DNA from: Octopus vulgaris
Taxonomy: Eukaryota
Length of the DNA: 64,000 nucleotides
Assembly (NCBI GenBank): GCA_951406725.2
Contig: OX597825.1
Coordinates: forward strand, 5,208,001 to 5,272,000
Direction: 5' to 3'
In this document: positions 27,112 to 27,475 of the stretch, in pieces
Layout: the number at the start of each line of letters is the position of its first letter
Numbering within the stretch: position 1 is the stretch's first letter
Notes under the pieces: model-generated
The model's input: the letters and a program-made list of their open reading frames with translations, nothing else
What the model was told of the DNA's origin: nothing
Databases searched by the model: none
Made by a program: the position numbers and the translations under genes

Positions 27112-27475
<364 letters not shown>

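What the first reader, a model, noticed from the sequence alone, without database searches (positions are those of the whole stretch)
27456..27475. Family D terminal 20-mer also appears inverted in front of the tRNA head
Seen: ctcttaaatatagaactgta ends copy 1 (24931-24950). The identical 20-mer sits at 27456-27475, which is inverted and upstream of the head of minus-strand copy 2. Combining the copies gives TA|cagttctatatttaagag-tRNA head-(AAT)n-hammerhead-ctcttaaatatagaactg|TA. Inference: either a Tc1/mariner-type MITE that captured a Pol III promoter and a ribozyme, or the inverted pseudo-LTR arrangement known from PLE insertions. No single copy here has both ends.
Basis: partly seen in the sequence, partly recalled or inferred. 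Interest (0 to 1): 0.7.

Follow-up and report, generated by a model that had tools for sequence, protein, structure and literature searches.

The report
Penelope-type tail on an octopus SINE
The inverted 20 bases are a flipped piece of the element's own 3' tail, joined at different points in different copies rather than forming a fixed transposon end, which makes this octopus repeat (tRNA-like head, ribozyme motif) likely a short parasite copied by Penelope-like retroelements.

Summary
The 20-mer is at both places (really 22 identical bases) and is inverted relative to copy 2's head. It is the family's 3' tail: body and tail are contiguous in copy 1, two contigs of public runs and two Octopus protein models; copies 2 and 3 stop about 33-36 bases short. 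It is not a terminal inverted repeat: in four public runs the head normally continues into a short hairpin, and at most 4-6% of head depth reaches the 20-mer. But five other contigs join a head to an inverted tail at three other points, with pieces of differing length. One-sided 30-40-base tail, inverted 5'-truncated 3' end and minimal hammerhead are the published marks of Penelope-like element (PLE) insertion. So the Tc1/mariner MITE reading fails and the PLE reading holds. The inversion is a known scar; the less ordinary part is the family: a dispersed, tRNA-headed, non-coding element apparently moved by PLE machinery, which ten literature searches did not turn up. No partner PLE was found; Rfam and ARAGORN recognise neither head nor ribozyme; transcription and cleavage are untested.

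The parts
24634..24709 (+). Copy 1 tRNA-like head; A-box-like 24642-24652, B-box-like 24687-24696 (45 bases apart, as in tRNA genes); keeps a remnant of the family's 5' hairpin, with a short deletion
   Evidence: Sequence, alignment, loose ends; box consensus recalled; not found by ARAGORN or Rfam
24710..24774 (+). Copy 1 (AAT)n linker
24775..24919 (+). Copy 1 body, shared by all three window copies; likely derived from a PLE pseudo-LTR
   Evidence: blastn and MAFFT
24823..24870 (+). Minimal type I hammerhead motif of the PLE kind, core intact; predicted cut after 24864
   Evidence: against the descriptor in PMC4209133; no Rfam hit; activity untested
24920..24952 (+).
   Evidence: Present in copy 1, two contigs (table 5c), P0001 and P0006; absent from the 3' ends of copies 2 and 3 and P0007
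27114..27266 (-). Copy 2 body, ending without the tail; hammerhead motif 27163-27218 carries a core change at 27210 (G5 to A) and an 8-base loop insertion
27267..27385 (-). Copy 2 (AAT)n linker
27386..27456 (-). Copy 2 tRNA-like head; A-box-like 27441-27451, B-box-like 27399-27408; lacks about 11-12 bases of the family's 5' hairpin and 2 bases at 27431
   Evidence: tables 4 and 7
27456..27477 (+). Inverted, 5'-truncated piece of the family's tail (the finding), sharing one base (27456) with the head
   Evidence: tables 5, 5c, 7, 8
47684..47807 (-). Copy 3: body only, no head, no full tail; hammerhead motif 47730-47777 with intact core

Best explanation
The 22 bases at 27456-27477 are an inverted, 5'-truncated piece of the element's own optional 3' tail, likely left by Penelope-like (PLE) retrotransposition of a non-coding element made of a tRNA-like head, (AAT)n and a PLE-type hammerhead end. 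Shown: the tail belongs to the family; it is missing from the 3' end of some copies; head-to-inverted-tail joints recur with different lengths and 1-4 shared bases; the usual 5' end is a short hairpin. Inferred: RNA polymerase III transcribes the unit from the A/B boxes; a PLE protein supplied in trans binds the pseudo-LTR-like 3' part, cuts both target strands and starts reverse transcription at two sites about 33 bases apart, as shown in vitro for the anole PLE (PMC11167929). One cDNA starts at the inner site and runs through to the head (copy 2 body, no tail); the other starts at the outer site from the opposite target strand, stops early (22 bases here, about 48 and 56 in other copies) and is joined to the first by microhomology. 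That gives tail-out, head-to-head inserts with the tail at one end only.
For: Tail is family sequence: in a contig of X11 the 34 letters before the 20-mer match 24897-24930 at 26 of 34 without gaps, and in one of X3 the first 25 body letters match 24904-24928 at 22 of 25 (table 5c, compared by eye); O. bimaculoides models P0006 and P0001 read through body and tail in the two orientations. [quoted passage not shown] Inverted pieces vary: joints at 27415/27456 (X3 1 contig, X11 2), at the head plus 34 body letters (X11 1) and plus 36 letters (X3 1); in the last two the junction letters fit both head and body (4 and 2 bases). The hammerhead motif has the features of PLE minimal hammerheads: extra base between positions 9 and 10.1, G10.1-C11.1 (copies 1, 3), palindromic 15.2-16.2, 5-base-pair helix I (PMC4209133). 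Octopus has active PLEs (31 recently active families in O. vulgaris, PMC13282606).
Against: No autonomous partner was found: no RT or GIY-YIG Pfam hit in 150 of 231 window frames, and the search for longer proteins with the body frame gave only a host gene model (weak test). Only 5 contigs in 2 of 4 runs show other inverted joints, three of them with unknown letters between, and contigs were laid at 80% likeness. Rfam and ARAGORN recognise neither motif; helix II is 5-6 pairs, shorter than the 7-8 given for schistosome PLE motifs; fold z-scores are not significant. There is no run of four T at the end of copy 2 and the only one in copy 1 lies inside the body, so a Pol III stop is not evident. 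5' inversions also arise in LINE-driven insertions (recalled).
Confidence: 0.8

Rival explanations
1. Tc1/mariner-type MITE: the 18-20-mer is a terminal inverted repeat with TA duplication, and the element captured a Pol III head and a ribozyme.
For: The inverted piece reads TA-CAG at its outer end, like Tc1/mariner ends (recalled); a real TA-flanked inverted-repeat element exists in the window at 41732-42262.
Against: 0 of 3 window copies have both ends; the head normally continues into a hairpin in all four runs; depth over 27466-27475 is 4.2, 4.1, 5.9 and 5.5% of that over 27446-27455, and about 0.2% of that over 27426-27435; inverted pieces differ in length and join point.
Confidence: 0.03
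2. Locus-specific event: the 22-mer is a direct repeat in genome coordinates, a target-site duplication (or local template switch) around a 2.5-kb segment 24953-27455 that entered the end of copy 1.
For: The two 22-mers are 100% identical, in the same orientation, 2.5 kb apart, with a 228-base inverted duplication between them. The exact junction was seen only for this locus.
Against: Bodies of copies 1 and 2 differ at 8 of 145 aligned bases, so 22 identical bases are expected about 29% of the time. The same kind of joint exists in 5 other contigs. No empty site appeared among the listed loose ends (534 rows not shown).
Confidence: 0.07
3. Ordinary LINE-dependent tRNA SINE that once picked up a PLE pseudo-LTR as cargo; occasional 5' inversions come from twin priming by a LINE enzyme.
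For: tRNA-like head, dispersed monomers, SINEs and LINEs abundant in octopus (PMC13282606); no PLE partner found.
Against: No poly(A) or simple-repeat 3' end; two end classes one tail length apart; the inverted piece keeps the outer end while the forward copy lacks it, which PMC11167929 calls a signature unique to PLEs; no significant target duplication (longest shared words 4, 6 and 5 bases; null shares 0.53, 0.054, 0.19).
Confidence: 0.1

Closest known systems
Insertion units of endonuclease-positive Penelope-like elements (Penelope/Poseidon, Neptune, Nematis; PMC8557442 passages, PMC11167929 parts 1-2 of 4)
   Same: Optional 30-40-base tail at one end only; inverted 5'-truncated copy next to the 5' end; minimal hammerhead upstream of the tail; 5' truncation; no clear target duplication.
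   Different: No RT/GIY-YIG reading frame; about 320-360 bases; tRNA-like head and (AAT)n in place of the coding part; no partial tandem seen in the window.
Schistosome Sm-alpha / Sj-alpha SINE-like repeats (as reviewed in PMC6765202, passages; original papers not read)
   Same: Pol III-type promoter followed by a hammerhead in a short non-coding repeat.
   Different: Those are described as tandem, liberated from multimeric transcripts; Schistosoma carries canonical hammerheads besides the minimal PLE ones (PMC4209133). Here copies are dispersed monomers with a minimal PLE-type motif and PLE insertion marks; the passages read name no partner for Sm-alpha.
Animal non-LTR retrozymes (PMC7229834 passages; bioRxiv 10.64898/2026.07.22.740005 part 1 of 5 and passages)
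   Same: Non-coding, type I hammerhead, proposed to be non-autonomous PLE derivatives.
   Different: Defined as tandem repeats with a hammerhead in each unit, giving circular RNA; 'tRNA' occurs 0 times in the preprint's text and only for ligases in the 2020 passages. Family D here is not tandem and has a tRNA-like head.
Non-autonomous Chlamys PLEs such as MRC1 (PMC8557442 passage)
   Same: Short non-autonomous elements sharing their 3' end with autonomous PLEs.
   Different: Green algae; pLTR and head-to-tail arrays; most Chlamys lack canonical hammerheads; no tRNA head mentioned in the passage.
Octopus tRNA-derived SINEs of Ohshima and Okada 1994 (seen only as a citation; OR1 is a CORE-SINE per PMC4824008 passage)
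   Same: tRNA-derived, octopus.

Membership tests
Tc1/mariner MITE | Same inverted repeat at both ends of each copy | tested here: not met
   0 of 3 window copies; usual sequence beyond the head is a hairpin arm in four runs (table 7)
Tc1/mariner MITE | Fixed ends with TA duplication | tested here: not met
   Joints at four different points, pieces of 22, about 48 and 56 bases (tables 5, 5c); 3' ends differ between copies
PLE-type insertion | Optional 30-40-base tail, often at one end only | tested here: met
   5 copies with tail, 3 ends without, 25-36 bases shorter; 2 protein hits dropped as uninformative; not a frequency, since queries held the tail
PLE-type insertion | Inverted 5'-truncated copy adjacent to the 5' end | tested here: met
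   Copy 2 plus 5 contigs in 2 of 4 runs
PLE-type insertion | Minimal type I hammerhead in the pseudo-LTR | tested here: met
   Core and four descriptor features in copies 1 and 3; copy 2 mutated (PMC4209133); no Rfam hit
Autonomous PLE | ORF with RT and GIY-YIG endonuclease | tested here: not met
   Element is about 350 bases; no such Pfam hit in 150 of 231 window frames
Non-autonomous PLE derivative | 3' end shared with an autonomous PLE of the same genome | not testable with these tools
   No genome held; pattern scans of viral, metagenome and prokaryote collections gave 0; protein search for longer forms gave a host model only
tRNA-derived SINE | tRNA-related head with A and B boxes | tested here: inconclusive
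   Both boxes present at tRNA spacing by eye; ARAGORN and Rfam negative
tRNA-derived SINE | Many dispersed copies | tested here: met
   3 copies in 64 kb; summed contig depth over the head is 4-5 orders above single-copy contigs in four runs (not a copy number, and other families may share the B-box part)
tRNA-derived SINE | Transcribed by RNA polymerase III | not testable with these tools
   Only DNA contigs were laid
tRNA-derived SINE | LINE-type 3' end (poly(A) or simple repeat, LINE-derived tail) and target duplication | tested here: not met
   No such tail; no significant duplication, best case 6 bases at copy 2, null share 0.054
Non-LTR retrozyme | Tandem units each with a type I hammerhead | tested here: not met
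   All 3 window copies are monomers; tandem source loci elsewhere not testable

The most novel reading that the evidence does not exclude
Family D is a true Pol III SINE whose partner is a Penelope-like element rather than a LINE: a tRNA head fused through (AAT)n to a PLE pseudo-LTR end that keeps the hammerhead and both reverse-transcription start sites, frees the unit from the tandem arrangement PLEs need for expression, and has spread as tens of thousands of monomers through octopus genomes.
Probability: 0.55. Interest if true: 0.7.

Novelty: new variant of a known kind. Interest (0 to 1): 0.5.

Why it matters
The inverted 20-mer alone is a known PLE scar. It matters as a diagnostic: it shows which machinery moved a tRNA-headed repeat. 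SINEs are normally LINE parasites (established knowledge); a PLE-dependent one would widen that definition, may account for part of the 893 'unclassified SINE' families listed as recently active in O. vulgaris (PMC13282606), and offers thousands of short natural insertions on which the two-start-site model of PLE reverse transcription, the origin of the inverted piece and the need for the hammerhead can be counted directly.

Tried and rejected
Exact-pattern scans of viral contigs (18-mer), metagenome contigs and prokaryote genomes (26-mer) gave 0. The look-up of sequencing runs: no RNA holder listed; nothing is concluded on expression. Rfam and ARAGORN found neither tRNA nor hammerhead (the snoR160, CRISPR and miRNA matches at E 0.39-9.4 are chance level). 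Single-strand folds of hammerhead, tail and head gave z between -1.04 and +0.29; a co-fold of two hammerhead cores did not give the active dimer as its minimum, so dimer activity is not supported by folding. The target-duplication search was not significant. P0002 and P0003 are unrelated repetitive proteins and were dropped; P0005 and P0008 were left out of the tail count because they leave the element before the tail. The depth shoulder over 27462-27477 fits about 30 single-copy contigs a run, but depth does not separate inverted from normal tails or from alignment overrun, so it is used only as an upper bound. One joint on opposite strands (27422/27462, X2) and an insertion behind 27462 (6 contigs) were not explained. 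The 7-base match between the tail start and the head downstream of the A box is not the junction used in copy 2. Searches of earlier scan notes by sequence, by words and by place gave nothing. The phrase search for PLE-derived or PLE-dependent elements returned nothing on SINEs in its listing.

Full report
Observation. The 20-mer occurs exactly twice in the window, at 24931-24950 and 27456-27475, both on the + strand, against 0.01 matches expected by chance. The identity is 22 bases long. Three copies of the family lie in the window: copy 1 (+, about 24634-24952), copy 2 (-, 27114-27456) and a headless copy 3 (-, 47684-47807). The 22-mer ends copy 1 and abuts the head of copy 2 in inverted orientation. 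No copy has it at both ends. The host group is shown only through relatives: protein models holding translations of the element are named Octopus bimaculoides and O. sinensis.

Anatomy. Each full copy reads: tRNA-like head, (AAT)n, a body of about 145 bases, optional tail. The head has A-box-like and B-box-like motifs 45 bases apart in copy 1 (consensus recalled), but ARAGORN and Rfam do not call it. The body holds CUGAUGA, one extra base, a 5-6-pair helix II opening with G-C, GAAA, the palindrome ACGU with no loop, and a 5-pair helix I. These match the features that Cervera and De la Pena list for minimal hammerheads of metazoan PLEs (PMC4209133; passages and section 5 read), except that helix II is shorter than their 7-8 pairs for schistosomes. 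The core is intact in copies 1 and 3; copy 2 has G5 changed to A. Rfam has no matching family at E <= 10, and folding gives no significant stability. Cleavage is untested.

Is the 20-mer the family's end? Yes. In one search (window 27386-27685 laid with contigs of runs X1, X2, X3, X11 at 80% likeness; 3161-5143 records laid a run) table 5c shows one X11 contig with 34 letters between the head and the 20-mer that match 24897-24930 at 26 of 34 positions without gaps, and one X3 contig with 36 letters, of which 8 continue the head and the next body letters match 24904-24928 at 22 of 25 (compared by eye; 12 of 15 rows were shown). Two O. bimaculoides protein models run through body and tail, P0006 on the sense frame and P0001 on the antisense frame. 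Copies 2 and 3 and P0007 stop at about 24916-24928. So there are 5 ends with and 3 without a tail of roughly 33 bases; this is not a frequency, because the queries held the tail, and P0005 and P0008 were dropped as uninformative.

Is it a terminal inverted repeat? No. Beyond head position 27456 the loose ends read CCGTGGGCATA in all four runs (33, 48, 38 and 40 contigs), and the rows at 27431-27434 agree; the 16 listed rows on this side cover 179, 274, 175 and 229 contigs (534 rows not shown) (table 7). The family head thus starts with a short hairpin, and copy 2 lacks about 11-12 bases of it. Depth over 27466-27475 is 4.1-5.9% of depth over 27446-27455 and about 0.2% of depth over 27426-27435 (table 2); this is an upper bound, since depth is not copy number and does not separate orientations. 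A MITE would give near 100%.

Is the inversion unique to this locus? The exact joint was seen only here, the kind of joint was not. Table 5 lists a joint from 27415 to 27456 in 1 contig of X3 and 2 of X11 (letters between not known), and table 5c the two joints above. With copy 2 that makes four join points, inverted pieces of 22, about 48 and 56 bases where measurable, all listed ones including the tail, and 1, 2 and 4 bases that fit both sides. The numbers are small: 5 contigs in 2 of 4 runs, some perhaps one locus seen twice.

Mechanism. [quoted passage not shown] Frangieh et al. showed in vitro that the anole PLE protein cuts and extends both target strands, prefers AT-rich DNA, and starts reverse transcription at two internal sites that bound the tail, and that hammerhead cleavage is not needed (PMC11167929; parts 1-2 of 4 read). 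Copy 2 fits this in detail: the forward copy starts at the inner site and lacks the tail, the inverted piece starts at the outer site and is cut short. I infer that a PLE protein acted in trans on a Pol III transcript of head, (AAT)n and pseudo-LTR end. Shown are the tail, its optional presence, the variable inversion and the motif; inferred are the polymerase, the partner and the order of priming. Against: no partner was found (no RT or GIY-YIG hit in 150 of 231 window frames; only a host model among longer proteins; no genome), no Pol III terminator is evident, and no target duplication is significant.

Rivals. The MITE reading fails two defining tests. A local 22-base duplication around 24953-27455 remains possible because the two 22-mers are direct repeats in the genome, but the bodies differ at only 8 of 145 bases, so perfect identity over 22 is expected about 29% of the time, and other loci show the same kind of joint. 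A LINE-driven SINE carrying PLE cargo cannot be excluded until the partner is named, but lacks a LINE-type end.

Comparison and novelty. It works like a PLE insertion; it is not an autonomous PLE. It resembles schistosome Sm-alpha/Sj-alpha (Pol III promoter plus hammerhead; PMC6765202 passages), non-LTR retrozymes (PMC7229834 passages; bioRxiv 10.64898/2026.07.22.740005 part 1 and passages) and non-autonomous Chlamys elements, but is dispersed, tRNA-headed and carries the minimal motif. Ten searches of the held library showed no description of a tRNA-headed, PLE-moved element; most listed papers were seen only as listing. The 2026 O. vulgaris repeat annotation has 0 occurrences of 'hammerhead' in text and supplement (PMC13282606; part 1 of 3, passages and supplement search). 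Passages of PMC10886601, PMC6962438, PMC4824008, PMC9115989 and PMC3531059 added nothing on this family. Subscription papers, Repbase, Dfam and the 1994 paper on three octopus tRNA-derived retroposons were not available, so the family may already bear a SINE name.

Verdict. Observation confirmed; MITE reading rejected; PLE reading supported (0.8). The inversion is a known scar; the family is a new variant of a known kind, with a 0.55 chance of being an undescribed PLE-dependent SINE. Interest 0.5.

Noticed in passing
window 27456 and beyond, public contigs (table 7): The family head begins with a short perfect hairpin (about 8 pairs, 2-base loop) that inverts the first bases of the tRNA-like part, the same in all four runs; it may be a frozen fold-back joint of the master copy or part of the transcript.
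   Followed up: partly
window 24783-24906; P0005, P0008: Two RefSeq-type models (an O. sinensis protein, an O. bimaculoides dystrobrevin isoform) start with a translation of the body and leave it one codon after YPS, at the GT at 24906: a possible splice donor, echoing introns in PLE pseudo-LTRs, or exonisation.
   Followed up: no
P0001 against window 24854-24952 (-): Homology of this copy stops within a few bases of the predicted hammerhead cut (24864/24865); one case only, could be a splice or chance.
   Followed up: no
window 24881-24932: The start of the tail pairs with the body about 40 bases upstream, enclosing the inner end site in an A-rich loop; two contigs have C where copy 1 has T, which perfects the stem. 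Fold z -1.04.
   Followed up: partly
window 27471-27484; 24620-24627; 27104-27109: The flank of the inverted piece mirrors the tail's last 7 bases (14-base palindrome), and similar short words lie before copy 1's head and after copy 2's 3' end: a hint of target-tail likeness, not significant.
   Followed up: partly
window 25483-25710 and 26760-26989: 228-base inverted duplication, 96% identical, between copies 1 and 2, enclosing palindromes at 25981-26148 and about 26200-26320.
   Followed up: no
window 27496-28174: Another multi-copy repeat starts near 27493-27498 (table 8); 27902-28174 reads like the C-terminal end of a Tc1/mariner-type transposase (recalled motif; no Pfam hit).
   Followed up: partly
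window 41709-42285: TA-flanked element with 113-base inverted ends (92%) and a transposase-like remnant (TGDETW) at 41747-42082; a second mariner-like remnant at 61666-62013 (motifs recalled; no Pfam hit).
   Followed up: partly
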